Shown here in pieces: positions 38,886 to 61,041 of a stretch of 64,000 nt of DNA. The notes below the pieces were generated by a model, which worked only from the letters and a program-made list of their open reading frames with translations, ran no database searches and was not told where the DNA came from. The DNA is taken from NCBI GenBank assembly GCA_026004395.1, contig BPJB01000001.1, positions 905,226 to 969,225 of the forward strand, written 5' to 3'. This DNA is from Patescibacteria group bacterium (GTDB taxonomy: Bacteria > Patescibacteriota > Microgenomatia > Levybacterales > UBA12049). Within the stretch, counting starts at the first letter, position 1. Each line of letters starts with the position of its first letter. Position numbers and translations under genes: made by a program.

Positions 38886-39070
38886 GATATACTTCTGGTA
38901 GTGATGACACAAACAGAGGAATATGGTCCAATGGCCAATACGCGATGTCGGTATTTACACAAATGGTGTTAATAGAATTTTAGTCAAAAGGAGATTCTGG
39001 CAACGTCGGCATCGGGACAACAACACCCCTTGGCAAACTCAATGTTGATGGTGCTGCCACCGGCAAAGCA

Positions 39071-42000: not shown

Positions 42001-45000
42001 CCAATGGCTTCCCACCTCAGATTCAACCACTGCTTTGAATATTGCCAATGCTGCAGGAACTTCATTCGTCACCTTTGACAGTACTAATCAACGTGTTGGA
42101 ATTGGGACTACAGCACCAACTACCAAGTTAGAACTAGGCAGTGGTCAATTAGCAGTACCACTAGGATCAGCTACAACTCCATCCTACACCTTCAGCGGAG
42201 ATCTCAATACCGGAATCTGGTCATCAGGAGCAGACACTCTCAACTTCTCCACAGGAGGATCTGAAAGAATAAGAATTATCAGCAACGGCAACGTCGGCAT
42301 CGGGACGACGGGACCTACGGCAAAACTACAAATTGAAGGCTCTGGGGCAAATATATTCCTTAGCAACACGACCTCAAAGTATATCACTTTTGGAGCAGCC
42401 GGCTTTGCTCCTCCTGCTATAGATAGTGCCGGAACCAAATTAATCCTTTACGGTAGTGCCAATAATAATACTAATAACCCAAGATATGCGATGGGGATTG
42501 CACCATCAGAATTGTGGTATTCAAGTGGAGGTGTGCATAGGTGGTATACAGAAAGCGCAGGAACATGGACACCAAGGATGACAATAGATACCTCCGGCAA
42601 CGTCGGCATCGGGACGACAGCTCCTCTTGAAAAACTAGATGTATCAGGAAATGCAACAGTCTCTGGCAATCTCACCTTCTCTGGAGCAAGAACAATCGCC
42701 TCAAGAGCATTCACTCAACTAACCATTGGTGATACCCAAACTGGAAATATCCTTTTCTCACCAGCATCTGGAAAACAAATAATGTTCTTCTCCTCATCCA
42801 ACTACATAGACTCCTCTGGAAACCTTGTTCTCGCTGGCACAACAGGCATCACAGCATCAGGAACAGGTGCTGGTCTTAATTTCTCAGGCACTGGAACCCA
42901 TATCATCCAAGCAAGCGCTGGCACTCTCCAAATCAACGCCTTCACTCTAGGAGGAGCCATAACAGGCAACAACCAAAACATCTCCAGCATCGGCAACATC
43001 ACAGCCAATACCAGTGCCAATACCATAACAGGATTTGGTACTATTGGAACATCAGGTACTACAGCATTCCAAGGTATAACAGCAACACTCAATGGTACTG
43101 GCAACGCTCTCACCCTCTCTGGTGCTGGCGCCAACATCGCCTTTACTGGTGCTGGTCTTGCACAGATCACAACAGCTGCCTCCCAACACCTCGCCCTCAT
43201 GCCAGGCGGCAACGTCGGTATAAACACCACCTCACCCTCCTACAAACTAGACGTCCAAGGTGGATCAGGCATAGTAGCTCAGTTTAGTGGCAGAGTCATA
43301 GGCGCTGATGCTATCAACACCAATGAGTTCGTAACTCTAGGTCAACTCCAAGGAGGCAGTGGATCCCTCTGGCTTGATGGTGGAGACTATCTCTACCCCA
43401 ACTCCTCCTTTGCCACCAATGTCATGGTACCATCAGGAAGACTAGGTGTTGGTCTCTCCTCCACTCCCTTCAAACTGGAAATAACAGGTGCTGATGCTGG
43501 CAAAGCTCTAGCTTCCTTCAACTACACAGGCACTGATCAGAACATCCTTGTTGCTTCACAATCTGGCACACTCAAATTTGCTGTTGGATACAATGGCAAC
43601 ATCACCTCTGCAACAGGTACCAAATGGCTACCTACCTCAGACTCAACCACTGCTTTGAATATAGCCAACTCCTCTGGTACCTCCTTCGTCACCTTTGACA
43701 CTACCAATCAGAGAGTTGGAATTGGGACGACGGCACCTGGAGCAACATTAGACGTATCTGGGACTGATACTTTATTGCAAGATATAAGGTTTGTAGAAGC
43801 AAGCGGAATTAACTATATCCAAAGTACTAACAATAGAGGAGCAAACACATGGCAACCTCTCCACATTGGTGCTGGTTACAGTGGAAGCGATATTAAATTA
43901 GCAATAGACTCTACAGGCAACGTCGGCATCGGGACAACGGGACCGGGACAAAGATTAGATGTACAAGCTTCTGGAACAAATGATGATAGTATAAGACTCA
44001 CCACTGGAAATGCAGATGGTGGTTTACGCTTGAAAAATACTGGCACCGGCGGAGTTGAGTGGTTTATTGATTCTACATCAGGCTCAAGTGGTTACGGACA
44101 AGGAAAACTTGCGTTCGTACCAAATGTTGGGAGCACTCCAACAATGACATTAAGTGGCAGCAACGTAGGTATAAGCACCACAGCTCCAGGGGCATTACTG
44201 GATGTTAGAGGCAACGTTAGATTTCTTTCACAGACCAATAATTATTATCGTACATTTTTTGAAGCTACTACTGAAGGCGGATGGAATTTTCCGTCAATGA
44301 TAGTAGGACAACAAAGAGGAATTGTTATAAAAGATCGATCTGGACTAAGCGGAGGATTATGGCTAAATGGAGGAGATTATAATGCCATTGGTTCAAGAGG
44401 CGGAATAGGAGTTGGTTTAGTTACTGATCTTGGAACATATTTTGCATTAACCTCTTCATCTTCATTCATTAGATTTCACGATGGACAAATTATATTTTAT
44501 GGTAATACAGGATTAACCCCAGGATCAACGTTTTCGCCAACAGAACGTATACGTATTGATGCAACCGGCAACGTCGGCATCGGGACGACGAATCCAACAG
44601 AAAAATTAGAAGTAGTCGGAGATGTGAGGCTTAGGTCTGATAGTGATGTAAATACAAGTGTAGGATCTGGAGTATTGCAAATTTTAAACTCTGGGGGCAC
44701 AGCTGGTATTCATCTTGATGCTAACGAAATCCAAGCTATAGGAAATGATCTCCATATCAACAATGATAATCAAGTTAATACACATATTAACAACTTAGTT
44801 CACATAACTACAGGCGGCAACGTCGGCATCGGGACGACGGGTCCGGTAGCGAAGTTGGATGTGGCAGGATTAATAAAAGGTTCAAGTGGTTTTAGCTCCG
44901 ATGGTACAGCGAAAGTATTAACATACAGGTTGTCGAATTCAACCACAAATAGTGGCGATAGGTATATTGGAAGATTTACCGGCTCTCAATCTAACAGAAT

Positions 45001-47911: not shown

Positions 47912-48575
47912 AAACTTCATGTAATCGGAAACTACAACAGATAACTAATGATTTAGAAGCTATTGACCCCAGCAACCGTATTCTTTGTAGCATCAAATGA
48001 TACTCTATCAACTACATGGCTCATCGGTAAAAACTCCAGGAATCAATTAATACTTAAAGATAAAGATCCAAATACTACTCTTACTGGTCAACGGCAGGCA
48101 CAGTTGCACTTTCAAACACACAACGGCACTGATTGATGGAACTGAATATAATTTTGCAACAGCTGCATTAACTAGTACAAGCGACTACTGTTGTGATTGA
48201 AATTACTAATCCCAATGGCCTTAACGCAGTTTACTCAAATGCAGCATGGTTTACGAGTGTTTTCTTTAGGAACAATTATGCCACAGCTCTATAACAGTTG
48301 ACGCACGTTATGATGGACATCCAGGATCCTATCAAACAATTTGGTCAACAACAACAAACGATCAAAGAACATGGCTAAGTTCAGCTGTCACGACCACGCT
48401 CACGGGATGACAGTCCCAGAAAATCACATCGTTGGTGGATCACTTACCTTGGTACCAGCGCTGGAGTCCACTTAACTACGGATGGACTCCAAACAGTAGA
48501 ACGGCAACTATCTCAGTATGCTCTTGAACTAGGAACAACATTTTATCGGTCATCAACTTTCCTACTGGTAGCTGC
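47912..48575 (+). pseudogene. degenerate, stop-riddled remnant of fibre-repeat coding sequence between giant ORFs 2 and 3
   Basis: Directly after the TAG at 47909-47911 the sequence still encodes KLHVIGNYNR, the same KLHVIG motif that ends ORF 1. It then gives protein-like translation interrupted by many stops in all frames. Confidence 0.4.
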
Positions 48576-50147
48576 TTGATACTCCCTACAGCGGAACAGA
48601 ATCACCTCGCACTCATGCCAGGTGGCAACGTGGGTATAAACACCACCACTCCAGTCTATACCCTTGATGTTAATGGCACATTTAGATCCTCATCGACATC
48701 AAACGCTGTTTTCGGCAATGGTACAACAGGTGGAATCCAACTAGGAGATGGTACTATTACAAAAACTACAGGCAATCCCTTTACTATGAATAGTGGACTA
48801 ACACTTAGCCAAAATCTCGCAGTCAATGGCGGTTCAATCACCTCAACTGTTGATCTGACTCTCAATCCATCAGGCGGTCAAGTCTTCCTCGCTGATACTG
48901 ATACCCTAGCTATAGGAGGCCATGCAGGAGCTGCCTACAACGCAATATCCAACGCAGGTGGAACTCCATCCAACCCCAACGTCACATCAGACAACGATCT
49001 CTACATCCAAGGCGATCTGGACATCGGAGGCACACTATATGTCGGTGGATCTCAAATTGCCAATTACTGGCAGCGCAATGGCACAACTCTTGCCCCAACA
49101 ACTACTACAGACAGTGTCGTACTAGGAGGCAATACATCAACTGTTCACCAGTTTGAAGTTAATGGAGCAGTAACAGGCAAGGCTCTTGTTGCCCTCACTG
49201 AGACTGGTGATCAAAATATCATCACTGCCTCCTCTTCTGCTACAACAACTGTCTTCAATCTCTCACGCACAGGCGCAATCAGCGTTGCCGCAGGACAAGG
49301 ATTGGATACGATCTCAGCTGGAGCACTTAATATAGGTACCACCACCCAAACAGCACTTACTCTTGGACAATCAGGAGCAACAACAACTATTAATGGCTCA
49401 TCTCTAACTGTTGGTCCCACCTCATGGACAGCAACACCTACTATCTCAGGACTGATCACAGCCACAAGCGGACTCACTGCCAACGGAGCACTCACCGCTA
49501 ACAACGTCTTTACACTAGGAGACGGTGGTGACACAGGATCAATCAACACCTCAGACTGGGATATCTCAACCACAGGCGTTATGACTGGTATCTCAGGCAT
49601 AACAACAGATGGAGGATACACTCAGTCAGGTACTGCCATCAATACCTTCACCGGTGATCTATCTCTTGGAACAGGTGTACAGGTAGACTTCGCAGATGAA
49701 GTCGGTGACAAATTGTATCTTTTCTCCAATACATATGGAATAGGCATTGAATCCTCAACACTCACCAACTGGTCAGCAAGTACATTCCGCTGGAGAATAG
49801 GTGGCACATCTGTCTCAACTGGCACTGAATACATGACACTAACAAGCAGTGCTCTTAACCTTGCCAACAACACTCTGACCTCAACTGTGATCTCACCCTC
49901 AATCCCTCAGGAGGCCAAGTCTTCCTCGCTGATACGATACCCTAGCTATTGGAGGCCATGCAGGAGCTGCCTACAACGCAATATCCAACGCAGGTGGAAC
50001 TCCATCCAACCCCAACGTCACATCAGACAACGATCTCTACATCCAAGGCGATCTGGACATCGGAGGCACACTATATGTCGGTGGATCTCAAATTGCCAAT
50101 TACTGGCAGCGCATCGCTGGCAACCTCTCACCAATAAATCTCAATGA
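48576..50147 (+). CDS. fibre-protein fragment 3 (523 aa as called); the last ~85 codons are out-of-frame read-through of a duplicated segment
   Basis: Starts ...QNHLALMPGGNVGINTTTPVYTLDVNG, the motif seen in gene 2. The C-terminal Arg-rich tail (RYPSYWRPCRSCLQRNIQRRWNSIQPQRHIRQRS...) is the +1 frame of a copy of 48860-49077. Confidence 0.5.
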   Translation: MILPTAEQNHLALMPGGNVGINTTTPVYTLDVNGTFRSSSTSNAVFGNGTTGGIQLGDGTITKTTGNPFTMNSGLTLSQNLAVNGGSITSTVDLTLNPSGGQVFLADTDTLAIGGHAGAAYNAISNAGGTPSNPNVTSDNDLYIQGDLDIGGTLYVGGSQIANYWQRNGTTLAPTTTTDSVVLGGNTSTVHQFEVNGAVTGKALVALTETGDQNIITASSSATTTVFNLSRTGAISVAAGQGLDTISAGALNIGTTTQTALTLGQSGATTTINGSSLTVGPTSWTATPTISGLITATSGLTANGALTANNVFTLGDGGDTGSINTSDWDISTTGVMTGISGITTDGGYTQSGTAINTFTGDLSLGTGVQVDFADEVGDKLYLFSNTYGIGIESSTLTNWSASTFRWRIGGTSVSTGTEYMTLTSSALNLANNTLTSTVISPSIPQEAKSSSLIRYPSYWRPCRSCLQRNIQRRWNSIQPQRHIRQRSLHPRRSGHRRHTICRWISNCQLLAAHRWQPLTNKSQ

Positions 50148-50181
50148 CACAATCTCTGCTACTACATCAGCATCTACAGCA

Positions 50182-50715
50182 TTGACTATAACTCAAACTG
50201 GTGCATTTGATGTCGTCAGATTTGAAGATCAAGCATCAGATACAACACCATTCGTAATCGATCAAAATGGGAATGTCGGTATTGGTACCACAGCACCAGG
50301 GTACAAACTAGATGTAGCTGGAAGTGTCAATATTGGTAGTAATAGTCACTTATATTTTGCCGGAGGTAATCCTCATATTGAAAGTATATATGATGACTTT
50401 ATTTTCCAAGTTGATACTGACAATAATGCCACAGGTAGATTTTTCTTCAAAGACACAAATACCGATGTTATGACAATCGTCAATGGCAACGTGGGTATTG
50501 GTACAACTGCACCTACAGCCAAACTTGATATTACTGGTGATGCTTCCTCCTCCGGCTCTCTAGTACTTCGAGGTACTTCACCAACTACATTAGATATCTT
50601 AAATGGAGGAAGATTTGATATCCAAACCTCTGTAGGAGGAGATGCAGGACTTACTCCAAGATTGACAATCACCAGCAACGGCAATGTAGGCATCGGGACA
50701 ACGGGACCAGCTTGA
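50182..50715 (+). CDS. fibre-protein fragment 4 (177 aa; TTG start as called). Its frame extends upstream through the duplicated segment and downstream, via a 1-nt shift, into ORF 5
   Basis: Contains DQNGNVGIGTTAPGYKLDVAG and NGNVGIGTTAPTAKLDITG, and ends GNVGIGTTGPA*. The upstream in-frame sequence reads ...GGSQIANYWQRIAGNLSPINLNDTISATTSAS with no stop. Confidence 0.5.
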   Translation: MTITQTGAFDVVRFEDQASDTTPFVIDQNGNVGIGTTAPGYKLDVAGSVNIGSNSHLYFAGGNPHIESIYDDFIFQVDTDNNATGRFFFKDTNTDVMTIVNGNVGIGTTAPTAKLDITGDASSSGSLVLRGTSPTTLDILNGGRFDIQTSVGGDAGLTPRLTITSNGNVGIGTTGPA

Positions 50716-50899
50716 TCTTCTGGACGTAAATGGTGGCGTCATCATTCGCGATCGAGCTGCAATTCAAGGGACAGGCGCAAGCTGTAGCGCTCCTGGTGCT
50801 GGAACTGCAGGCTGGTGGTATGCTGATGCAGGAGATTGTTCAACTGTCTTTGCCGGGATAAATACTGCTACCAACGGCTCTGAGGTCTTTGGAATATAC

Positions 50900-53800
50900 A
50901 TGGGCAGCTGGGACTGGACAATAGATATTAATGGCAATGTCACCAATGCTGGCAATCTCACAGTCCAGGGTACAACAGGTATAACTGCTTCTGGAACTGG
51001 TGCTGGTCTTAACTTCTCTGGCACAGGAACGCACACAATCCAAGCAAGCGCTGGAACTTTGCAAATCAACGCATTTACTCTGGGAGGAGCTATCACAGGC
51101 AACAACCAAAATATCTCCAGTATCGGCAACATCACAGCCAATACAAGTGCCAATACCATCACAGGATTTGGCACCATAGGAACATCAGGCACAACAGCAT
51201 TCCAAGGAATAACAGCTACCCTCAGTGGTACTGGCAACGCTCTCACCCTCTCTGGTGCTGGTGCCAACATCGCCTTCACTGGTGCAGGTCTAGCCCAAAT
51301 CACAACAGCCGCCTCCCAACACCTCGCCCTCATGCCAGGCGGCAACGTGGGTATAGGCACTACTACTCCAACACTGGGCAAACTCACAGTACTTGGCACA
51401 ACGGCAGCTCAAACATTTGCTGATTATGACAATACAGCCTACTTCTTGGATCCAGCAACAACAACTACCTCACTCAACATCGCAGGTGGTGCCAATATTG
51501 GTGGTTATGCAACAGTCTCTGCCTCTCTTGCTGTTGGCTACACCAACGCACCTGCTGGTCCTGGACATGCCATCTTCGCAGGCAACTTAGGCATAGGTAC
51601 TACAGCACCAGTCCACAAACTAGAACTAGCCTCCCACACAACAGCAACTGGTGGCATAGGATTTGGCACTGATGTAGAACTCTACAGATCTGCTGCTGAT
51701 ACCCTCTCCCTTGCATCAGGTGACTCCCTCAACCTAGTCTCTGGCAATCTACAGGTTGGTAGTACAACAGTTATCACCAGTGGTAGGATTATTCAAGCTA
51801 CCAATGGCAGTGCTACATCTCCCTCATTCACCTTCTCCTCTGACACCAACACTGGCATATTTGGAACAGGTGCTGATGTACTCGCTATCTCAACTGCTGG
51901 CACAGAGAGAGTACGAATTGCTGCCAATGGCAATGTAGGTATAGGGACAACAACAACTGATTTCCAAACCACTATTCAAGAAAGCACTAATAGTAAAGGT
52001 ATCTTAGCGCTTCTTGGCGATGGCAACCAAACATTATTCACTGCCTCAATCTCAGGATCAACTAAGTTCTTAGTTGATAAGACTGGTAACGTCGGCATCG
52101 GGACTATAGCACCTAGTACCCTTTTGCATGTTGCCATGGACAACGGCACCCTACCTACATTAAGCTCTAGTACAGGTTTTGTAATTAATAATAATAGTGC
52201 AACGACAGACGATGTAAGTTTGTCTCTGGTAGCAGGAACAGCGGCAATGGCATGGCTTAGAATGGGTGATAGCGCTGATGAAAGTGCAGGAGCTGTCATA
52301 TATGACAACTCAGAGGATAGTATGTCACTCAGAGTTAACTCTGGAACACGTATAAAGATTACAAGTACCGGAAAAATTTCTCTTGGTGCCAGCGGTGTTA
52401 CTGAGCTTGGAAGTTCTAACATTCCTGATGGATCAGTTATTCTTCCTAATGGAGCATTTTGTGTCGACGATGGTGCTCAAAACTGTGATGACGCAGCTCG
52501 CGTAGCTGGAAGAATTTATGCTGAGTCAACAACAATTACTGCGATAGACTTGGCAGAAAATTATCCATCTAAAGACTCTACTATGGAAGCTGGAGACCTA
52601 GTAGTTGCCGATCCGGACAATACAGAGTATGTGAAGAAATCAACTGGCGCGTACCAGCCGTCTCTTATAGGTGTCATCTCAACCAAACCTGGTATTCTCC
52701 TTGGAGGATTTGGCGAGGAGGCAAAGAGATTCCCAGATGACAAAAAATACCCAATAGCTCTTGCCGGAAGAATACCAGTAAAAGTTTCAACGATCAATGG
52801 ACCCATCAAACGAGGCGACTACCTCACCTCCTCTCCAATTCCAGGTGTGGCGATGAAAGCAACTAGAGCTGGACAAATAGTCGCAAAAGCACTTGAGGAT
52901 TATAACACTCCTGATACGAATACAGTTGGCAAAATAGTCGCATTGGTTAACGTCTCTTGGTACGACCCACAGGTCTATATTGCAGACTCAGGTGACTTGA
53001 ATATCACAAACAACGCTGGTGACTTTAAAGCATGGGTTGCCGGACAACCAGTTGAGAGAAAAGCAGCCTATGCAGATGCTGTTATTGCACGTCTTACAAC
53101 AGGTATTGTAAAGACCAAACAATTACTTGTTGAAGGCACTGCTACATTCCTTGGAAGTGTCCAGATGCAGACATTGAATGTAGCCAATACTCTTAAAGCA
53201 GCATCTATTGAGGTTGCCAATAATCTCCAGGCAGGCACGATCAATGCCACAACTATAGCGGTCAATAGCCTCTCCATTGCCGGTCAGAATCTGAGAGATT
53301 ATATACTTGCAGTTGTTGAACAAGCTGGATTCTCTAAGAATCAAAATAACATCACCTCACCCATAGCTGATATTGATAGAATCCATACCAGCGTCATATC
53401 ACCGCTTGCTTCTGACTCTGCAATCTTGGTAAACGGCAAACTTGTCATCAAGAGAGGTAACGAAGGATCTGATGATTCTTCGACTTCGTCTCAAAATAAC
53501 ATTGCACTAGAAGTTCAAGGTTCAGCCTCAATTAGTGGAAATCTATCAGTCAGTGATGCAAGTATTGCTGGTACTCTTCGCGCTGGTAAGATCATCGCTG
53601 ATCAGATAGAGGGACTCGATGCACGCATTGCAAGTCTTGCAGCCAACGCTATCACCGCAACCAACGCAGCTATTGCGACAAACTCTACTGCATCGGATTC
53701 AGGAATACTTGCATCAGGAAGTGCAACTCTTGCTTCTCTGATCTCATCTACAATCGTTAGTGACTATGCTTCTGTTGCTAGCTTCACAGCAAATCTAGCC

Positions 53801-54586
53801 TTTGTACCCAATCTTAATGCGCAATTTGGGACATTTGAACAAGGACTGATGGCATTTGGACCATCATCCCTTTCTGATGTCTCTATTGCGGGACAACTCT
53901 CAATCAATGGCTCTATGATCTTTGCTGATAATAGTATCAATACACTTGGCGCTGATCTTCAGATACAGCCACTCAGACAAGGCAATATCTCATTTATGGC
54001 AGGTCTTGTCACCATAGATATTGACGGGAATATATCTGTTGCAGGGAATGCTACATTTGCAAAGAATGTTCGAGTCAATGGAACACTTGCAGCAAAAGTT
54101 ATCTCACCTGTTCCAGATGAAGACCTGGTCTTCAAGCTTCCGGGTACATCCAATAGCACACAACTTGCTGTTGATAGACCAAGTATTGTTGTCCAGAACG
54201 CATCCGGTTCAGCAGTCCTGAAGATCACTGATGAGGGAGATATCATCGCATCAGGCGAGGCTAATTTCAAAAATATTGCCACCAATACATTCAAGATCGT
54301 CAGAGGCGCGCAAGCTGATACCTCCCTCACCCAAACTATTGCCACAGCAAGTGCCGGAACAGCAACAATCAAGGCGGGTCAATTCGAGCGCACAATTATC
54401 AGTCCATTTGTCTCTGAAAAATCACTGATTTATATCACACCTGTCACCAATACCAATGGAGTCACACCTTATATCGCTCGTCAGACAGCTGAAGATGCAG
54501 AAAATGGTATCAAAGGATCATTCACAATTCGTATCCCTGTACTACAGACATCAGATGTGAAAGTTAACTGGTGGATTATTAATTAA
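50900..54586 (+). CDS. giant fibre protein 5 (1228 aa): N-terminal fibre repeats homologous to gene 2 plus a distinct, non-repetitive C-terminal ~700-aa region
   Basis: aa 20-160 are near-identical to gene 2 residues encoded at 42840-43215 (GTTGITASGTGAGLNFSGTGTH.IQASAGTLQINAFTLGGAITGNNQNISSIGNITANTSANTITGFGTIGTSGTTAFQGITATL.GTGNALTLSGAGANIAFTGAGLAQITTAASQHLALMPGGNVGI). The C-terminal part (..IDLAENYPSKDSTMEAGDLVVADPDNTEYVKKS..PIALAGRIPVKVSTINGPIKRGDYLTSSPIPGVAMKATRAGQIVAKALE..) lacks the repeats. Confidence 0.7.
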   Translation: MGSWDWTIDINGNVTNAGNLTVQGTTGITASGTGAGLNFSGTGTHTIQASAGTLQINAFTLGGAITGNNQNISSIGNITANTSANTITGFGTIGTSGTTAFQGITATLSGTGNALTLSGAGANIAFTGAGLAQITTAASQHLALMPGGNVGIGTTTPTLGKLTVLGTTAAQTFADYDNTAYFLDPATTTTSLNIAGGANIGGYATVSASLAVGYTNAPAGPGHAIFAGNLGIGTTAPVHKLELASHTTATGGIGFGTDVELYRSAADTLSLASGDSLNLVSGNLQVGSTTVITSGRIIQATNGSATSPSFTFSSDTNTGIFGTGADVLAISTAGTERVRIAANGNVGIGTTTTDFQTTIQESTNSKGILALLGDGNQTLFTASISGSTKFLVDKTGNVGIGTIAPSTLLHVAMDNGTLPTLSSSTGFVINNNSATTDDVSLSLVAGTAAMAWLRMGDSADESAGAVIYDNSEDSMSLRVNSGTRIKITSTGKISLGASGVTELGSSNIPDGSVILPNGAFCVDDGAQNCDDAARVAGRIYAESTTITAIDLAENYPSKDSTMEAGDLVVADPDNTEYVKKSTGAYQPSLIGVISTKPGILLGGFGEEAKRFPDDKKYPIALAGRIPVKVSTINGPIKRGDYLTSSPIPGVAMKATRAGQIVAKALEDYNTPDTNTVGKIVALVNVSWYDPQVYIADSGDLNITNNAGDFKAWVAGQPVERKAAYADAVIARLTTGIVKTKQLLVEGTATFLGSVQMQTLNVANTLKAASIEVANNLQAGTINATTIAVNSLSIAGQNLRDYILAVVEQAGFSKNQNNITSPIADIDRIHTSVISPLASDSAILVNGKLVIKRGNEGSDDSSTSSQNNIALEVQGSASISGNLSVSDASIAGTLRAGKIIADQIEGLDARIASLAANAITATNAAIATNSTASDSGILASGSATLASLISSTIVSDYASVASFTANLAFVPNLNAQFGTFEQGLMAFGPSSLSDVSIAGQLSINGSMIFADNSINTLGADLQIQPLRQGNISFMAGLVTIDIDGNISVAGNATFAKNVRVNGTLAAKVISPVPDEDLVFKLPGTSNSTQLAVDRPSIVVQNASGSAVLKITDEGDIIASGEANFKNIATNTFKIVRGAQADTSLTQTIATASAGTATIKAGQFERTIISPFVSEKSLIYITPVTNTNGVTPYIARQTAEDAENGIKGSFTIRIPVLQTSDVKVNWWIIN

Positions 54587-55008: not shown

Positions 55009-58000
55009 ATGAAAATTTATAAAAAATCTCCCTCACAACCAAACTCTTTTATCAATAAAAGTAAAGCATCCCAACTACCCCTAAAATGGTCAGAAAGTTT
55101 TATCTCCTATATCATCATCCTCCCATTTAGACTCCTCTTATTAGTTGCAAATATAGCGTGGCAAGCTCTAAATTTTCCTCTTAAACTCTTACCTCATCGT
55201 CTTATACATCGCCTTAACCCCATTCAGCGACTCTTTCTTAACGTCGTCACTGCTTCCATCTTCCTCATCTTTGGTATCTGGATCTATACTTCATTTTCTC
55301 AACCCGAACAATCAGAAGCGGTGTGGTTTAATGATCAATGGCTTTATAGACAAAAGGTAGATATTACCAATTCATCAGGATCAAACCTTACTGATTTCCA
55401 AGTTGCAATTACCTTAAATACAGCTCAAATGATTACAGATGGCAAACTCCAATCAGATTGTGATGATATCCGATTTGTTAATCAAAAAGGAGATATTCTT
55501 CATCATTGGCGTATACCTACAACTTTATGCAACACATCTACTACTAAATTTTTTGTACGTATTACCTCTATTCCAACAAACGGTACCACAATATTTGTAT
55601 ATTACGGTAATTCAACAGCACAAAATATCGAAGATGCAGGAAAAGTTTTTGATAGAGGAGGCATTAGAGGATTCTTCTATGCACATAACTCAGGATCACA
55701 TCCTACCACATCTGCAGCTTTTGACACATTCTTCACATCCAATATTGCAGGATTTCAGGGGCAACAACTTTATTCGCAGATCAATTGTGCTAATAATAAT
55801 TGCAATCCTTTTGATCCAGACGATGATAATTATGCCACTTATTTTGAGGGAATAATTTATATCCCAACCACGGGGACTTATTATTTTGCAACTGATTCTG
55901 ATGATGCATCAGATATTTATATAGATGGAGATTTCACAGCATCAAGTAGCGCTGGTACAAATGTCGCTAATTGGTACAATGGTCATGGTCTTGCTAATAA
56001 TTGGTCGCATAATGGATCTATAGTACTTACTAAAGGTTATCATACATTTCGCTATCGTATGGAAGAAGTATCTGGAGGTGATGGTTTTCGAGCAGCGTGG
56101 CAAAAACCTGGTGACACTTCATATTCATATATTACGGGAGAATATTTTTACTCCAAAAAATATGCATCTTCTGAGCCCACGATCTCTCTTGGCACAGAAG
56201 AACAATCCCCAGGACCTGTTGCCTATTGGAAATTTGATGAAGGAACCGGAACAACAGCCTATGATAGCTCTACGAATAAGTATCATGGAATAATCAGCGG
56301 AGCCACCTGGAAACAAGAAGGAGAGTGCTTAATTGGTAAATGTCTATATTTCGATGGGGTAAATGATTATATTGACCTTGGTAGCTCAAGTCGGTATGGA
56401 GCAACCAAAACAACAGGAGCATACACTATTGAAGCGTGGGTCAAACCAGTTGATGTTGCTAGATACAATATCCTAACGCTTCGTATTGGAGGATTTCACT
56501 ATTTTAGTACTGGAATTACAGGAGGTGAGGCTGGCGGCATGCGAACTATGGTACATGATGCAGTATCCAATGCCAATTATTGGCCAACTTCAAATTTGGG
56601 TATTTTGAAAGCTAATCAGTGGAATCACGTCGTTTTCATCTTTGAAGATGGTGTTGGCTATAAATATTATCTTAATGGAAAATTAGATAAAGAGGTAGCA
56701 AATTCCAACTTACAATTCTACAATTATGGGGGAAATGCATATATTGGCTATGGAACTGATAGTACAACTTTCTTCAAAGGATTTATTGACGAAGTAAAAG
56801 TCTATCCATATGTTCGTACACCAGAACAAATAAGAGCTGATTTTGGAAGTATAAAAGGATCCATCAAAGGTACATCTGTAGGTATAGGTGGATCGAGTCT
56901 CACCTCTTCTCTATCCAATGGACTTGTTGGCTACTGGAAGATGGATGAAACGACGTGGAGTGGCACAGCGGGAGAGGTAATTGATAGTTCGGGGAATGAG
57001 AATAACGGGACAGCAGTGAGTGGTGCTGAAGCTAGCCCTTCAGCAAAATTTGGCAGATCAGGTTATTTTGCAGGGATAGATGAAAACGTGGCTATAAATA
57101 ATTCTCCTTCAATAAGTAATTTTTCAAATGGGGTGACAGTATCTTTATGGTTTAAAACGAATTCTGTTAGCTCTGCGCAAAGCCAATTCGGATACAATGG
57201 GGGTGGATTTTTAAATTTTTGGATGAATTCAGGAGTCTCCTCAACAAATCTACGATGGGAGACAAACTCAGGACAATCAATAACTTCTACTACAGCTATT
57301 TATCCTAATACCTGGTACCATGCAGTAGGCGTTTATGATACAAAGACAGGAATTGCAAGCCTCTATATCAATGGAAGAATAGATGTTTCAGCAAATCGAA
57401 CATTTAACACAAGTAAAAGTGGTATTGTAACAATTGGATCATATTCAACCTCACAATATTTTTTTAATGGTAACATAGATGAAGTCCGTATTTACAATCG
57501 CGCACTCTCTCCAGCTGAAGTTCAAGAGCTTTATAATTTTGCTCCAGGACCTATTGCTTATTATGATTTTGAGGAAGGACAAGGAACATCACTCAATGAT
57601 AAGTCTGGCAATGGTAATAATAGCACTTCCTTTGGAGGTACTCCCACTTGGACAAAAGGATTTTATGGAAAGGGAATGAAATTTGATAATGCCAGCACGG
57701 ACCAAGTCACGATCCCTGGTTCAGAAATACTCAATTACAATAACTATACACTTGGTTTTTGGATTAATTTTACAGATGAATATGATGGAAGCTATCGGCA
57801 AATTATTGCCAGAGATCCGAATGGATCAGATAGGTCACCAGGCATATGGAGATATCCTAATATGCTTCGAATACACTGGAAACATCCTTATCCAGGAAAT
57901 GCTGGACCGGTAGCTATTGGTCCTAATGGGGAAAATACAAGCTTTGTTGCAAATAAATGGTATTACATGACTGGTGTTAAAAATGGCACATCATTTGATT

Positions 58001-59646
58001 ACTACTTAAATGGAGTAAAAATCGGTTCAACATATACCCTTACTGATCCTATGATTAATGATGCAGGAGGCAGCTTTTACATTGGCAAAAGCGCAGGCTA
58101 TAACTCTGCAGGATTTATTATTGACGAAATAAAACTTTACAACTACGCGCGTACACAAAAACAAATTATCGAGGATATGAACGCCGGCCATCCAATAGGT
58201 GGCTCCCCTGTTGGATCTCAAGCACTATATTTGAAATTTGATGAAGGATACGGGACAACCGCTTACGATTCGGGACCAAATCGCATTAACGGCACTATTA
58301 CCAGCTGTTCGTGGACATTGGCAGGTAAATTCAATAAAGGTATTAACTGTAATGGTGGGGGATATGTAACACTCGGATCGAACACAGCATTTGATTCTTC
58401 CAGTTTTACCTATACATTTTGGATTAAAACAGGCGTACTGGGAGCGGATCAATATAGTAATATTATCCTTGGGCGAGAAAACTATACCGTATCCGGCTTT
58501 CGAGCAGGATTGGACAACAGTGGTCGTGTCTATTTCTGGACCACACAATCAGGAGGAACACTTAGTCTTACTTCTAATCGTTCTGTTACCGGTGATTGGC
58601 ACTATGTAGCAGTTACTTACGACTCAACTTCATCAACAGGCACCATCTATATTGATGGCAAAAAAGATGTTACTGCAACAGGAACATATATTGTTCCAAC
58701 TGGTGTCTCATTGGTACTCAATGGTGGTATTGGGGGTACTACTCGAAGCAATAGCCTTTTCGACGAATTTAAATTCTACTCCTCTGCTCTATCACCAAGT
58801 GAAATTCAAAATGATTACAACCGCGGTGCATCACTGGTCATGGGTGCCACCTCAACAAGTGATGATGGCACGACTGCCAGTAGCTCTGCCTCTCGCGCAT
58901 ACTGTATCCCTGGTGACACGTCGGTACCTGCAATCCACCTAGTTGGAGAATGGAAATTTGAAGAAGGAAGCGGTGGGACTGTGAATGACACATCCGGCAA
59001 CGGAAATACTGGGACATGGAATGGTACAGGTACGCTGCACTGGACCAAAGGAAAGATAGGAAAGGCTGGTAATTTTGACGGGAGCAGTGATTATGTCAGC
59101 GTCAATAGCAGCGCCACAATCCCTACTGGAGGTACTGCCAGGACTTTAGAGATGTGGGTATATACTACTGATAATTCCTGGGCAGATAACGCCAACACAA
59201 TCTTCGAGTATGGCACTAATACAACAAGACAAGCTTTTGGCATAGATATGAATCCCTTCCCTAATATCGAGGTTTATACTTGGGCTGATGATGCCACCGT
59301 TAATACAGGATTGTCAAACAAAGCAGGATGGTGGCATTTGGCTGTTACTTATGATGGAAGTACTACCATAAAAACTTATATTAATGGTGTGTTAAAAAGT
59401 ACAAAAACATTAGCTGGAGTCCTTAATACAGCCTCTTCAACGGTAAATATAGGTAGATCGGCTCTTGTAAATGCCTATTTTGATGGCCGATTAGATCATA
59501 TTCAGCTCTACGACTATGCTCGAACACCTTCTCAAATTACCTGGGATTACAATCGTGGCAAGCCGGTATTGCACACTGGAAATTTGACGAGTGCCAAGGA
59601 TCAACTGTCAATGATTCATCAGGCAACGGCAATTCTGGGACGATAA
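55009..59646 (+). CDS. giant membrane-anchored lectin-like protein: N-terminal TM, PA14 domain, at least 5 Laminin-G_3 (ConA-like) domains
   Basis: TM at about aa 75-95. PA14-like segment YFEGIIYIPTTGTYYFATDSDDASDIYIDGDFTA...TKGYHTFRYRMEEVSGG. Repeated LamG hallmarks: ..YWKFDEGTGTTAYDSS.N...G.. ; (L/M/G)(Y/K)FDG(V/S)(N/S)DY(I/V) ; W(N/Y/H)H(V/A)(V/A)..YD....K.Y(L/I)NG. The last ~25 aa (HTGNLTSAKDQLSMIHQATAILGR) look out of frame. Confidence 0.75.
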   Translation: MKIYKKSPSQPNSFINKSKASQLPLKWSESFISYIIILPFRLLLLVANIAWQALNFPLKLLPHRLIHRLNPIQRLFLNVVTASIFLIFGIWIYTSFSQPEQSEAVWFNDQWLYRQKVDITNSSGSNLTDFQVAITLNTAQMITDGKLQSDCDDIRFVNQKGDILHHWRIPTTLCNTSTTKFFVRITSIPTNGTTIFVYYGNSTAQNIEDAGKVFDRGGIRGFFYAHNSGSHPTTSAAFDTFFTSNIAGFQGQQLYSQINCANNNCNPFDPDDDNYATYFEGIIYIPTTGTYYFATDSDDASDIYIDGDFTASSSAGTNVANWYNGHGLANNWSHNGSIVLTKGYHTFRYRMEEVSGGDGFRAAWQKPGDTSYSYITGEYFYSKKYASSEPTISLGTEEQSPGPVAYWKFDEGTGTTAYDSSTNKYHGIISGATWKQEGECLIGKCLYFDGVNDYIDLGSSSRYGATKTTGAYTIEAWVKPVDVARYNILTLRIGGFHYFSTGITGGEAGGMRTMVHDAVSNANYWPTSNLGILKANQWNHVVFIFEDGVGYKYYLNGKLDKEVANSNLQFYNYGGNAYIGYGTDSTTFFKGFIDEVKVYPYVRTPEQIRADFGSIKGSIKGTSVGIGGSSLTSSLSNGLVGYWKMDETTWSGTAGEVIDSSGNENNGTAVSGAEASPSAKFGRSGYFAGIDENVAINNSPSISNFSNGVTVSLWFKTNSVSSAQSQFGYNGGGFLNFWMNSGVSSTNLRWETNSGQSITSTTAIYPNTWYHAVGVYDTKTGIASLYINGRIDVSANRTFNTSKSGIVTIGSYSTSQYFFNGNIDEVRIYNRALSPAEVQELYNFAPGPIAYYDFEEGQGTSLNDKSGNGNNSTSFGGTPTWTKGFYGKGMKFDNASTDQVTIPGSEILNYNNYTLGFWINFTDEYDGSYRQIIARDPNGSDRSPGIWRYPNMLRIHWKHPYPGNAGPVAIGPNGENTSFVANKWYYMTGVKNGTSFDYYLNGVKIGSTYTLTDPMINDAGGSFYIGKSAGYNSAGFIIDEIKLYNYARTQKQIIEDMNAGHPIGGSPVGSQALYLKFDEGYGTTAYDSGPNRINGTITSCSWTLAGKFNKGINCNGGGYVTLGSNTAFDSSSFTYTFWIKTGVLGADQYSNIILGRENYTVSGFRAGLDNSGRVYFWTTQSGGTLSLTSNRSVTGDWHYVAVTYDSTSSTGTIYIDGKKDVTATGTYIVPTGVSLVLNGGIGGTTRSNSLFDEFKFYSSALSPSEIQNDYNRGASLVMGATSTSDDGTTASSSASRAYCIPGDTSVPAIHLVGEWKFEEGSGGTVNDTSGNGNTGTWNGTGTLHWTKGKIGKAGNFDGSSDYVSVNSSATIPTGGTARTLEMWVYTTDNSWADNANTIFEYGTNTTRQAFGIDMNPFPNIEVYTWADDATVNTGLSNKAGWWHLAVTYDGSTTIKTYINGVLKSTKTLAGVLNTASSTVNIGRSALVNAYFDGRLDHIQLYDYARTPSQITWDYNRGKPVLHTGNLTSAKDQLSMIHQATAILGR

Positions 59647-60272
59647 CTATTGGTGCAACAGGGAGTCAGACCTCAGTCGGCACCTGCTCCACCTCTGGTA
59701 CTGCTTGGGGCAACGGAGCAACAGGTAAATTTAACCACTCACTTAATTTTGACGGGACTGATGATTATATCAATTTTGGAGATAATAGCAATTTTGACTT
59801 TGGAACAAATGATTTCTCATATTGTTTCTGGATCAAGACCACAGATACAGCCGGTCAAGTTGTCGGAAAAGGCGTTTGGTCATACGATGCATGGGGTTCC
59901 TATATATCATCAGGTAAAGTACGTTTTGAGATGAAAATTGAAAATCCACCTGGAAACAATTATACAACTGACTCTGCTGTTATCAATGATGGTAATTGGC
60001 ATCATGTTTGTGGAGTATATGATAGAGATACCAGTCTGAATGCTTACACCGATGGACAATTAACAAGTAGCAATACTTCATTCTCATCCGCTGTAAATTA
60101 TGATATAAGCAATGCTTCTAATTTTGCTATAGGCAATGGATCACCTGGTTATCTTTCAGGACAACTGGATGAAATTCAAGTCTTCAACTATGCCTTAACA
60201 GCCAATCAAGTCAAATCTCTCTACAATCAAGGCAGTGCAATTCGTTTTGCACCCGCAACAGGTACACCATAA
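59571..60272 (+). CDS. frameshifted 3' continuation of the PA14/LamG gene encoding one more complete LamG domain (no ATG; frame open from about 59571)
   Basis: In this frame: AHWKFDECQGSTVNDSSGNGNSGTITIG...KFNHSLNFDGTDDYINFGDNS...FWIKTTD...GNWHHVCGVYDRDTSLNAYTDGQLTSS...GQLDEIQVFNYALTANQVKSLYNQG. It has every hallmark of the preceding LamG units. The ORF track only shows the Met-initiated tail, 59931..60272. Confidence 0.55.
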   Translation, partial: AHWKFDECQGSTVNDSSGNGNSGTITIGATGSQTSVGTCSTSGTAWGNGATGKFNHSLNFDGTDDYINFGDNSNFDFGTNDFSYCFWIKTTDTAGQVVGKGVWSYDAWGSYISSGKVRFEMKIENPPGNNYTTDSAVINDGNWHHVCGVYDRDTSLNAYTDGQLTSSNTSFSSAVNYDISNASNFAIGNGSPGYLSGQLDEIQVFNYALTANQVKSLYNQGSAIRFAPATGTP

Positions 60273-60396: not shown

Positions 60397-61041
60397 TTAT
60401 TCTAGAATAAGATGCTTAATCTCATGCAGTTTCTTAGCATAGTCCTTTTGATCATTGACAAATTTTTTATATGCGTAGACTGATGGAAAAAGATCCAAAA
60501 CAGTCTTGGTATTACAGAGTTTTAAGGAAGATTCATCTATATACTCTTTATAACTTGACCATTCATACTCAGGATCTTTGCTCAGATTTGCCACTAGAGG
60601 ATTAAGGTGAATATAACGCGAGGTATGCATCAAAAGTTCGTCTGTTGGAATGGGTACAGATTTAAAAGACCCTTCAAAAAGTGTTCCTGCTCTTTTATAC
60701 TTGTTGTTGAAGTAATGTGTATAGGCATTGGATAACTGTTTCATAAATTGAGATATACCATTTTTCTCCTTTGCACGGATTAAAAAATGAAAATGATTGG
60801 GCATCAGGCAATATGCCAAAAGATCAACCTTTTTGGAAACATTTTTATTAAATAAACGCAGAGGAAGATCATGATACCTTTTGAGCACTTTTTCTAGTGG
60901 TGTGAGATAAATATATAAATAATAAAGAAAAATTCGATAATCCTGTTCATCCAAAAATATAGCTCTCTTATCCACGCCTCTATTAAAAATATGGTAAATA
61001 CCACCTACTTCAAAATTACGAATATGATACTTTGACGGCAT
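60397..61041 (-). CDS. IS200-like Y1 transposase / REP-associated tyrosine transposase (RAYT, TnpA_REP)
   Basis: YHIFNRGVDKRAIFLDEQDYRIFLYYL...LLAYCLMPNHFHFLIRA (HuH motif H-F-H) ...QLSNAYTHYFNNKYKRAGTLFEGSFKS (catalytic Tyr region) ...YIHLNPL. Flanked by AGAGGT-nnn-ACCTCT hairpins. Confidence 0.75.
   Translation of the reverse strand: MPSKYHIRNFEVGGIYHIFNRGVDKRAIFLDEQDYRIFLYYLYIYLTPLEKVLKRYHDLPLRLFNKNVSKKVDLLAYCLMPNHFHFLIRAKEKNGISQFMKQLSNAYTHYFNNKYKRAGTLFEGSFKSVPIPTDELLMHTSRYIHLNPLVANLSKDPEYEWSSYKEYIDESSLKLCNTKTVLDLFPSVYAYKKFVNDQKDYAKKLHEIKHLILE

What the first reader, a model, noticed from the sequence alone, without database searches (positions are those of the whole stretch)
55009..60272. 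PA14 + six LamG (ConA-like) lectin-type giant protein whose last LamG unit is displaced by a frameshift at about 59570
Seen directly: the 1545-aa ORF has an N-terminal TM, a PA14-like segment and five LamG_3 units, each with the ..W.FDEG.G....D.SGNGN.G, FDG..DY(I/V) and WHHVAVTYD......Y(I/L)NG landmarks. At CCGGTATTGCACACTGG the frame changes: PVLHTGNL... is read instead of PV-AHWKFDE.... The new frame encodes a complete sixth LamG unit through 60272. PA14 plus LamG arrays are carbohydrate-binding adhesin or agglutinin architectures. Its position next to the fibre island and the RAYT element suggests an accessory adhesion toolkit. The frameshift may be a real on/off switch or a sequencing error.
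Basis: partly seen in the sequence, partly recalled or inferred. Interest (0 to 1): 0.55.

Follow-up and report, generated by a model that had tools for sequence, protein, structure and literature searches.

The report
Six-LamG surface protein, probably false frameshift
This is an ordinary giant lectin-like surface protein of an ultrasmall (Patescibacteria) bacterium, and the two extra bases that cut off its last domain are most likely a metagenome-assembly error, not a genetic switch.

Summary
A complete sixth unit lies in another frame, 59571-60272.

The break is two extra bases at 59569-59570 (CCG GTA TT GCA). All five positional orthologues found are intact ORFs of 1736-1768 aa. They carry one codon there: GTA in four, ATT in one. 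The window's GTATT is the two alleles merged.

The same "both alleles kept" pattern occurs at 58942, and partly at 58920-21. An extra base also breaks the neighbouring fibre gene at 50711. The out-of-frame unit shows dN/dS 0.17, like the in-frame units.

The source is MAG mg089, assembled from PacBio HiFi reads with metaFlye, which collapses strains. There is no repeat tract at the site and no stimulatory RNA structure.

- **Most likely (about 0.7):** a consensus artefact in an intact gene of about 1753 aa.
- **Rival (about 0.2):** a very recent real insertion.
- **Switch:** not supported.

The family (DUF2341 plus six LamG) is widespread in Patescibacteria.

One by-product may be of real interest. 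Each LamG position has 2-4 sharply distinct allele classes, reassorted among six related genomes.

The parts
55009..59646 (+). ORF as it stands in the sequence. 1545 aa, identical to GenBank GIW62072.1 (KatS3mg089_0924). Its last 26 codons (59569-59643) are out-of-frame tail VLHTGNL...AILGR.
55231..55293 (+). Conserved hydrophobic segment, aa 75-95 (LFLNVVTASIFLIFGIWIYTS), followed by SQPEQSEA|VW. It is either a signal anchor or a cleavable signal peptide.
   Evidence: hydropathy. Conserved in orthologues. Distant relatives show A-x-A-like sites just before the conserved W. Cleavage is inferred.
55318..55653 (+). DUF2341 domain. The Pfam best stretch is aa 150-215. The confident beta-sandwich model covers about aa 104-215.
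   Evidence: 45.7 bits against 23.4. (pLDDT about 90 for this part).
55651..56235 (+). PA14 domain segment, aa 215-409 (Pfam core aa 267-369). It is an insertion found only in this small clade of the family.
   Evidence: 23.4 bits against cut-off 24. (9 of 10 homologues above cut-off). (the roughly 1530-aa relatives lack it).
56215..56847 (+). LamG unit 1 (aa 403-613).
56923..57537 (+). LamG unit 2 (aa 639-843).
57550..58182 (+). LamG unit 3 (aa 848-1058).
58222..58821 (+). LamG unit 4 (aa 1072-1271).
58918..58947 (+). Local 22-nt frame excursion in the unit 4-5 linker. The window has +2 nt (about 58920-21) and +1 nt (58942) relative to all five orthologues. It reads TSVPAIHLVGEW in place of T[SGN][TV]CNPP[VI]GEW and loses a family-invariant Cys.
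   Evidence: Family consensus.
58939..59553 (+). LamG unit 5 (aa 1311-1515).
59566..59570 (+). The frameshift. The window reads GTATT where the orthologues have a single codon: GTA in L002-L005, ATT in L001. Two bases (59569-59570) are extra.
59580..59586 (+). Heptamer A_AAT_TTG, in register for a -1 slip back into the true frame. It is simply the K-F codons AAA TTT of the canonical frame. No stimulatory structure lies downstream.
59571..60272 (+). LamG unit 6 plus the conserved C-terminus ...RFAPATGTP and stop, in the other frame. It is complete, has no internal stop, and has no start codon before 59931.
60397..61041 (-). Context: Y1 (IS200-like) transposase-family gene, 214 aa. It holds the same position in three related contigs.
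50711..50711 (+). Context: one extra base (AGCTTGA against AGTTGA) breaks the neighbouring fibre gene. The near-identical orthologue L004 is intact there.

Best explanation
**What the gene is.** It encodes a secreted or N-terminally anchored surface protein of about 1753 aa from a Patescibacteria (CPR) bacterium. The layout is a hydrophobic leader, DUF2341, a PA14 lectin-type domain, then six position-specific LamG (concanavalin-A-like) domains, ending in a conserved ...RFxPxxGxP tail.

**What it probably does (inferred).** By analogy with PA14 and LamG domains elsewhere, it most likely binds glycans or other surface ligands of a host cell or substrate.

**What the frameshift is.** The two extra bases at 59569-59570 are most likely not in the organism's DNA.
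- The contig is a metaFlye consensus of HiFi reads from a natural population.
- Where two co-occurring strain alleles differ by clustered substitutions (GTA against ATT), a strain-collapsed consensus can keep bases of both (GTATT).
- The same appears to have happened at 58942, perhaps at 58920-21, and in the fibre gene at 50711.

**Shown:** the architecture; the intact orthologues; the merged-allele pattern; purifying selection on unit 6; the assembly method.

**Inferred:** that reads would split into two in-frame haplotypes; the ligand-binding role.
For: 1. **Orthologues are intact.** Five of five syntenic orthologues are intact ORFs of 1736-1768 aa with one codon at the site. L005 is 100% identical to the window over 2.4 kb just upstream.
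2. **The window reads as two alleles joined.** CCGGTATTGCA equals the left part of the L002-L005 allele (CCGGTA) joined to the right part of the L001 allele (TATTGCA) at a shared TA. GTA travels with unit-5 class a. ATT travels with the only other unit-6 class a carrier. The window has both classes.
3. **The pattern recurs.** The same union occurs at 58942: CCT-A-GTT equals L005's ATT plus the others' GTT. It occurs in part at 58920-21. All four lesions that can be compared with orthologues are insertions in the window.
4. **An invariant feature is destroyed.** The 58920/58942 pair removes a Cys that is invariant across the family.
5. **Unit 6 is still under selection.** dN/dS against L001 is 0.17 (8 synonymous, 5 non-synonymous), within the 0.06-0.29 range of the in-frame units. 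It has no stop in 262 codons. All four window-private substitutions downstream of the shift are synonymous in the canonical frame.
6. **Frame breaks cluster.** A codon-score scan found breaks only in the polymorphic surface-protein island and none in the other 48 kb.
7. **Assembly method.** The source MAG mg089 was assembled from Q20+ HiFi reads with metaFlye 2.8.3 (PMC9671151). metaFlye gives a strain-collapsed consensus (bioRxiv 10.1101/2023.01.31.526521).
8. **Six units are the family norm.** Six LamG units with this exact junction motif (DYNRGxPVxHWKxDECQG) are standard across the family.
Against: - No reads were available, so the artefact is not demonstrated.
- HiFi consensus errors are usually homopolymer indels, and these are not. 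The explanation needs strain mixing, which I infer but did not observe.
- The +2 and +1 lesions at 58920/58942 add up to a whole codon. Selection on a real sequence would favour that. Chance gives it 1 time in 3.
- Window-private substitutions lie on both sides of 59569 (59541, 59606). The site is therefore inside a private haplotype tract, not exactly at a haplotype switch.
- Three SNPs just to the right (GAG TGC CAA) match L002, not L001.
- For 58920 and 50711, one of the two supposed parent alleles was not observed.
- Two further breaks in the fibre gene look like 1-nt deletions relative to an internal repeat copy. They do not fit the insertion-only pattern.
Confidence: 0.68

Rival explanations
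1. **Genuine, very recent 2-nt insertion.** This strain really carries GTATT. It makes a 1545-aa protein with five LamG units and a 26-residue nonsense tail. Unit 6 is a fresh, not yet decayed remnant. The cause would be a loss-of-function or tip-loss variant in a fast-evolving surface gene, possibly created by an imprecise exchange in the unit 5-6 linker.
For: - The sequence as deposited contains it, and GenBank annotates the 1545-aa product.
- The lesion sits in the linker where the window switches from L005-like to L001-like cassettes, so a recombination-associated error is conceivable.
- The neighbouring fibre gene is also broken, as expected if the whole surface module is being lost.
- HiFi consensus is normally accurate at sites that are not homopolymers.
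Against: - There is no sign of relaxed constraint in unit 6: dN/dS 0.17, and all private downstream changes are synonymous in the canonical frame.
- Several independent lesions in genes 98-100% identical to intact orthologues leave very little time for real decay.
- The lesions look like unions of observed alleles and are all insertions. Random mutation would rarely produce that.
- Homologous exchange between 95%-identical flanks should stay in register.
Confidence: 0.24
2. **Reversible or programmed switch.** The frameshift regulates whether the sixth LamG unit is made. This would work either by phase variation at the DNA level or by ribosomal frameshifting at A_AAT_TTG (59580).
For: - A formally correct X_XXY_YYZ heptamer lies 10 nt downstream, in the right register.
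- A -1 slip there would give a full-length protein with LHTGNL in place of AHWKF.
Against: - There is no homopolymer of 4 or more and no tandem repeat at or near the site.
- The heptamer is just AAA TTT (K F) of the canonical frame. It is present in all in-frame orthologues, so its register is automatic.
- The 94 nt downstream fold worse than shuffles (z +1.15).
- The frameshift is absent in 5 of 5 orthologues.
- The slip product would destroy the conserved W-K-F-D-E start of the domain.
Confidence: 0.03
3. **Natural five-unit isoform.** The gene is meant to stop at 59646, and the downstream LamG sequence is a separate or vestigial element.
For: Some relatives are about 1520-1547 aa long.
Against: - Those shorter relatives lack the PA14 insert, not a LamG unit. 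They still have six units and the conserved C-terminus.
- The closest orthologues all read through.
- The downstream frame has no start codon for 149 codons.
Confidence: 0.02

Closest known systems
DUF2341 domain-containing LamG-repeat proteins of Patescibacteria / Microgenomates (NCBI annotation; Pfam PF10102 + PF13385)
   Same: - Same overall build: short hydrophobic leader, DUF2341, six LamG units with position-specific conserved linkers, and a conserved C-terminal ...RFGPxxGxP.
- 825 relatives at E<=1e-10 among the 8000 candidates scored, typically 1500-2000 aa.
- Large patescibacterial proteins with DUF2341 have been suggested to act in adhesion or host interaction (PMC11809585).
   Different: - This clade (window, L001, L002, L004, L005) has a PA14 domain inserted after DUF2341. 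Most relatives lack it, and L003 has another module there.
- No member has an experimentally known function.
PA14 / GLEYA lectin domains of surface adhesins (Pfam PF07691, PF10528; for example yeast Flo/Epa adhesins and bacterial giant adhesins; from general knowledge)
   Same: - A PA14 beta-barrel with the DD-x-x-[LIV]-x-[LIV]-DG motif (SDDASDIYIDG), sited near the N-terminus of a giant surface protein.
- Homologues of the segment score for both PA14 and GLEYA.
   Different: - Its own score is just under Pfam's cut-off.
- The second calcium- and sugar-binding loop could not be checked.
- The structure model of this part was poor (pLDDT below 55).
- The rest of the protein is unrelated to those adhesins.
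LamG / concanavalin-A-like jelly-roll lectin modules (pentraxins, sialidase N-terminal lectin domain, clostridial neurotoxin Hc-N)
   Same: Weak Pfam cross-hits to Pentaxin, Sialidase and Toxin_R_bind_N reflect the shared fold.
   Different: These are fold-level resemblances only. Most scores are at or below family cut-offs, and nothing can be inferred about ligand.
Mosaic receptor-binding genes with reassorting cassettes (phage tail fibres, mosaic surface antigens; from general knowledge)
   Same: Divergent domain bodies (25-48% aa identity between classes) sit between conserved linkers (86-100%). They are reassorted so that all six related genomes differ.
   Different: - No silent cassette store was seen, and no diversity-generating retroelement. 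No other LamG gene was found among the large ORFs of the window that were scanned.
- Exchange appears to be between genomes, not within one.
- Some partner contigs are short-read assemblies that could themselves be chimeric.
TafC family fimbrial protein (NCBIfam NF052521)
   Same: It shares LamG-type sequence similarity (79 bits for the ORF, 55 bits for unit 6).
   Different: The score is far below the 410-bit equivalog cut-off. This protein is not a member.

Membership tests
Laminin_G_3 / concanavalin-A-like lectin superfamily (PF13385) | Profile match above the gathering score for each unit. | tested here: met
   Five stretches in the ORF (364 bits in total, cut-off 27.6). The sixth unit in the other frame scores 87.4 bits and covers profile positions 1-151 of 151.
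DUF2341 (PF10102) LamG-repeat proteins of Patescibacteria | DUF2341 domain directly after the N-terminal hydrophobic leader. | tested here: met
   45.7 bits against a cut-off of 23.4, at aa 150-215. The model is confident for this part.
DUF2341 (PF10102) LamG-repeat proteins of Patescibacteria | Six LamG units in a single reading frame, ending in the conserved C-terminal motif. | tested here: not met
   All six units and the motif are present, but unit 6 is out of frame because of 2 extra nt at 59569-70. With those two bases removed, the ORF is 1753 aa with no stop.
PA14 domain (PF07691) | Profile match above the gathering score. | tested here: inconclusive
   Its own score is 23.4 against 24. 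Nine of ten homologues of the segment (E<=1e-17 to the window) score 26.8-47.5 bits over the same region. The DD...DG motif is present by eye.
PA14 lectin adhesins | Calcium-dependent sugar-binding loops and demonstrated ligand binding. | not testable with these tools
   The structure model of this part had pLDDT below 55. No biochemical data exist.
Programmed -1 ribosomal frameshift site | Slippery heptamer X_XXY_YYZ in register. | tested here: met
   A_AAT_TTG at 59580. It is the canonical-frame AAA TTT and is present in all in-frame orthologues, so it carries no weight.
Programmed -1 ribosomal frameshift site | Stable stimulatory structure a few nucleotides downstream. | tested here: not met
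   59587-59680 folds at -17.3 kcal/mol, against a shuffle mean of -21.1 (z +1.15).
Programmed -1 ribosomal frameshift site | The two-frame arrangement is conserved in relatives. | tested here: not met
   None of the five orthologues has it. All are single ORFs.
Phase-variable contingency locus | Homopolymer or short tandem repeat at the indel site. | tested here: not met
   No run of 4 or more and no simple repeat in 59500-59650. Tandem Repeats Finder found nothing in 59300-59900.
TafC family fimbrial protein (NF052521) | Equivalog score of at least 410 bits. | tested here: not met
   79.1 bits.
RAYT / IS200-like Y1 transposase (neighbour gene 60397-61041) | Y1_Tnp domain. | tested here: met
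   PF01797, 45.8 bits against a cut-off of 23.
RAYT / IS200-like Y1 transposase (neighbour gene 60397-61041) | Flanking REP palindromes or multiple genomic REP copies. | not tested
   What is known is that the gene holds the same position in L001, L002 and L005, at 91-94% nt identity.

The most novel reading that the evidence does not exclude
The LamG array may be a modular specificity organ.

- **Discrete allele classes.** Each of the six positions holds one of several classes. Identity is at least 85% within a class and 23-48% between classes. No similarity above 39% was seen across positions.
- **Reassortment.** The classes are exchanged between related Patescibacteria genomes by recombination in the conserved linkers. 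Every one of six genomes carries a different combination.
- **Recent exchange.** One 2.4-kb block is 100% identical between the window and L005, whose flanking genes are only about 91-92% identical.
- **Analogy.** This would parallel tail-fibre mosaicism in phages and would point to the determinants of host or substrate range in CPR bacteria.

On this reading, the lesion at 59569 could even be a real scar of such an exchange.
Probability: 0.45. Interest if true: 0.55.

Novelty: new member of a known kind. Interest (0 to 1): 0.25.

Why it matters
**For annotation.** KatS3mg089_0924 should probably be read as one protein of about 1753 aa. It is likely neither a truncated gene nor a pseudogene. 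The neighbouring fibre genes of this MAG need the same caution.

**For method.** Merged-allele insertions at polymorphic codons may be a recognisable fingerprint of strain-collapsed long-read consensus. Scans that flag frameshifts as possible switches should test for this fingerprint first.

**For biology.** The frameshift itself is of little interest. The cassette-like polymorphism of the LamG units may matter more. It is a plausible handle on how ultrasmall episymbiotic bacteria vary their surface-binding specificity.

Tried and rejected
- **Exact-protein look-ups.** Looking up the 1545-aa ORF and the Y1 gene found nothing. The identical protein surfaced only through the homology search.
- **Genome collection.** A DNA-pattern scan found no copy of the junction. 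A protein scan with the TPR neighbour found only an unrelated hit. The lineage is not among those species representatives, so no taxon name below 'Patescibacteria group' was obtained.
- **PDB sequence search.** A search with the DUF2341+PA14 region gave nothing significant.
- **Structure prediction.** AlphaFold2 on aa 95-430 with 29 sequences modelled DUF2341 well but not PA14. No fold search was run on it. PA14 was settled instead through homologues.
- **Junction-spanning search.** The second homology search used a junction-spanning query. It returned only distant proteins of 620 aa or less and no near-identical fragment from the same strain.
- **Paper supplements.** They gave no coverage or strain information for mg089.
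- **Ideas considered and rejected:**
  - Homopolymer slip: there is no homopolymer.
  - A 1-nt deletion giving ...KPGIAHW: the orthologues show exactly one residue between P and A.
  - A natural five-unit isoform: refuted.
  - Gene conversion from a paralogue in the window: no other LamG gene was found among the large ORFs scanned.
Full report
**1. The observation**

The window holds an ORF at 55009-59646 (+, 1545 aa). Translating all three frames shows a second frame open from 59484 to 60272. It encodes a full LamG-type unit: AHWKFDECQGS..., FDGTDDYINF, WHHVCGVYD, LDEIQVFNYALT, ending RFAPATGTP*.

Pfam gives the following:
- Five Laminin_G_3 stretches in the ORF, E 8.7e-110.
- One complete Laminin_G_3 in the downstream frame, E 1.4e-24, profile 1-151/151.
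- PA14 at aa 267-369, scoring 23.4 bits against a cut-off of 24.

PA14 is supported indirectly. The segment aa 215-409 has 2288 relatives at E<=0.001 in the representative library. Nine of ten short relatives score 26.8-47.5 bits for PA14 over the same region.

A 19-21-residue hydrophobic stretch lies at aa 75-95. The downstream frame has no start codon for 149 codons, so unit 6 cannot be made alone.

**2. Where the sequence comes from**

The 1545-aa product is identical to GenBank GIW62072.1, KatS3mg089_0924. It sits on a 1,084,101-bp contig of a 'Patescibacteria group bacterium'.

That MAG (mg089) comes from Katase hot-spring sediment. It was sequenced as PacBio HiFi reads (>Q20) and assembled with metaFlye 2.8.3. 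No separate polishing or strain resolution is described (PMC9671151).

**3. What relatives look like**

The homology search found 825 relatives at E<=1e-10 among the 8000 candidates scored. Those named by their source are 'DUF2341 domain-containing protein' of Levy-, Davies-, Shapiro-, Roizman- and Gottesmanbacteria.

The family consensus has six LamG units. Its linkers are position-specific and conserved, including ...IYNYARTPAQIAWDYNRGxPVxHWKxDECQG... before unit 6. The C-terminus is a conserved ...RFGPxxGxP. Relatives of about 1530 aa lack the PA14 insert, not a LamG unit.

Five positional orthologues were recovered with their DNA:
- L001 (P0003, 1736 aa).
- L002 (P0002, 1768 aa).
- L003 (P0004, 1765 aa).
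- L004 (1743 aa), found with a DNA pattern across the junction.
- L005 (P0390, 1740 aa), the other member of the window protein's own 90% cluster.

The contigs that reach far enough downstream (L001, L002, L005) show the same neighbours: a 214-aa Y1 transposase-like gene on the minus strand, then a TPR gene. The fibre gene lies upstream in L001, L004 and L005. All five genes are single intact ORFs.

**4. The lesion at base level**

| Source | Sequence at the site | Reading |
|---|---|---|
| L001 | AAA CCT ATT GCA CAC TGG | K P I A H W |
| L002-L005 | AAG CCG GTA GCA CAC/T TGG | K P V A H W |
| Window | AAG CCG GTA TT GCA CAC TGG | frame lost |

The window therefore has two extra bases, at 59569-59570.

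The string CCGGTATTGCA equals the left part of the GTA allele joined to the right part of the ATT allele through a shared TA. GTA is the allele of every genome with unit-5 class a. ATT is the allele of the only other genome with unit-6 class a. The window has both classes.

L005 is 100% identical to the window over 56481-58880. Inside the gene the window differs from it by only three indels: 58920 (2 nt), 58942 (1 nt) and 59569 (2 nt).

The first two are also extra bases relative to all five orthologues. At 58942 the window reads CCT A GTT GGA, against L005's CCT ATT GGA and the others' CC. GTT GG.. Again both allelic bases sit side by side.

Together the 58920 and 58942 insertions replace T[SGN][TV]CNPP[VI]GEW with TSVPAIHLVGEW. 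That removes a Cys that is invariant in the family.

**5. Is unit 6 decaying?**

No.
- Against L001, the unit-6 body has 8 synonymous and 5 non-synonymous differences, dN/dS 0.17. The in-frame units give 0.06-0.29 against their nearest alleles.
- It has no stop in 262 codons.
- The four substitutions private to the window downstream of the shift (59606, 59627, 59663, 59759) are all synonymous in the canonical frame.

**6. Base rate of frame breaks**

I scanned the window for coding-like sequence lying upstream of the first start codon of every stop-to-stop segment. Only four strong cases emerged: the LamG site and sites in the fibre gene(s) at 48576-54586.

In the fibre gene, the window has one extra base at 50711 (AGCTTGA against L004's AGTTGA). 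The two sequences are otherwise 85-100% identical (mostly 93-100%) over 3.9 kb with no other indel, and L004 reads straight through.

Two more breaks, near 49870 and 49930, flank a 226-nt internal repeat. They look like 1-nt deletions relative to the other repeat copy. The other 48 kb gave no strong signal, though this scan has limited sensitivity.

**7. Switch hypotheses**

- The site has no homopolymer of 4 or more and no tandem repeat.
- One X_XXY_YYZ heptamer (A_AAT_TTG, 59580) lies in the right register. It is simply the AAA TTT of the canonical frame, so its register is automatic.
- The 94 nt after it fold worse than shuffled controls (z +1.15).
- A slip there would replace the conserved AHWKF with LHTGNL.
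- None of the orthologues shares the arrangement.

**8. Best explanation**

The gene is most likely intact in nature: about 1753 aa once 59569-70 are removed, with no stop. The extra bases are most likely a consensus artefact.

metaFlye produces a strain-collapsed, species-level consensus. I infer the following from how indel-tolerant consensus methods work; I did not test it. Where two abundant haplotypes differ by clustered substitutions, a sequence carrying bases of both can score better than either haplotype alone.

This accounts for five features:
- The union-of-alleles pattern at 58942 and 59569.
- The fact that all four lesions comparable with orthologues are insertions.
- Their location in conserved linkers, where reads of strains with different cassettes still align.
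- The loss of invariant features without any sign of relaxed selection.
- Their restriction to the polymorphic surface-protein island.

I put this at about 0.68. A genuine, very recent insertion, possibly tied to an exchange in the unit 5-6 linker, stays at about 0.24. My reasons for keeping it that high:
- I have no reads.
- The 58920/58942 pair restores the frame.
- The site lies inside a tract of window-private SNPs rather than exactly at a haplotype switch.

A switch stands at 0.03 or less.

**9. Function**

Function is inferred only. A leader peptide, DUF2341, a PA14 lectin-type domain and six LamG jelly-rolls suggest an extracellular binding protein.

Large patescibacterial proteins with DUF2341 have been proposed to act in adhesion or host interaction (PMC11809585). 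The TafC fimbrial family hit is far below its cut-off.

**10. By-product: cassette mosaic**

| Position | Allele classes among the six genomes |
|---|---|
| U1 | 3 |
| U2 | 3 |
| U3 | 3 |
| U4 | 3 |
| U5 | 2 |
| U6 | 4 |

- Identity is at least 85% within a class and 23-48% between classes. Cross-position similarity never exceeds 39%.
- The last three linkers are 86-100% identical in all six genomes.
- Every genome has a unique combination.
- The window shares U1-U5 with L005 at 94-100% nt identity (mostly 96-100%). Their Y1 and TPR flanks are only 91-92% identical. This points to recent lateral exchange.
- Some partner contigs are short-read assemblies and could be chimeric. The window-L005 comparison does not depend on that.

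**11. Verdict**

- The protein is a new member of a known, widespread, functionally uncharacterised family.
- The frameshift is probably not biological.
- Interest is low for the finding as stated and moderate for the cassette polymorphism.

Noticed in passing
window 48576-54586: The 'fibre' ORFs look like one gene of about 2000 aa with GNVGIGTT-P..KLDV repeats, broken by at least three frame changes. The pieces are 48576-50147, stop-to-stop 49933-50715, and stop-to-stop 50690-54586. The breaks lie near 49870, 49930 and 50711. The one at 50711 is a single extra base relative to the intact orthologue L004.
   Followed up: partly
window 48851-49077 and 49888-50113: A 226-nt direct repeat inside the fibre gene, 99% identical in its 178-nt core (90% over the first 48 nt), with spacing of 1037/1036 nt. 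The copies differ by a 1-nt indel (GATAC[T]GATACC). It could be a real internal duplication or an assembly problem.
   Followed up: partly
window 34305-38885: A 1526-aa ORF starts with a phage-integrase SAM-like N-terminal domain (aa 5-90, E 5e-17). By eye, further similar helical segments follow, then a hydrophobic segment and fibre-like repeats. There is no integrase catalytic domain. This is an odd fusion.
   Followed up: no
window 38885-39071 and 47909-48576: The ends of the giant fibre ORFs fall in mid-motif. ORF 39071 begins inside ...GKA|LVILNETGDQ..., with coding-looking pieces in other frames just upstream. ORF 39071-47911 ends at an in-frame stop inside GNVGIGTTGPG*KLHVIG. The 34-55 kb island may be one or two giant genes with many breaks.
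   Followed up: partly
window 56481-58880 versus L005: These 2.4 kb (LamG units 1-4) are 100% identical to a Logan contig from SRR22372591. The flanking Y1 and TPR genes of that contig are only 91-92% identical to the window. This suggests recent lateral exchange of the adhesin gene between diverged genomes.
   Followed up: partly
window 60397-61041 (-): The Y1 (IS200-like, 'RAYT') gene is 214 aa long and holds the same position in L001, L002 and L005 at 91-94% nt identity. It looks like a fixed, possibly domesticated gene and not a recently mobile element. REP repeats were not searched for.
   Followed up: partly
L001 (GCA_038893955.1, JAWAQI010000015.1): This contig is labelled 'Nitrososphaeria archaeon' in NCBI. 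Yet it carries the syntenic patescibacterial fibre/LamG/Y1/TPR block at 90-96% nt identity to the window. It is probably a mis-binned contig.
   Followed up: no
window 55009-55230 (aa 1-74): The region upstream of the conserved hydrophobic segment is highly variable among orthologues (6-40% identity) and contains a second hydrophobic stretch (aa 31-52). The true start codon and the topology are uncertain.
   Followed up: no
L003 gene 329-5626, region aligned to window aa 160-400: In L003, the tail of DUF2341 and the whole PA14 segment are replaced by an unrelated module of similar length (about 20-35% identity). The N-terminal module therefore also exists in alternative forms.
   Followed up: no
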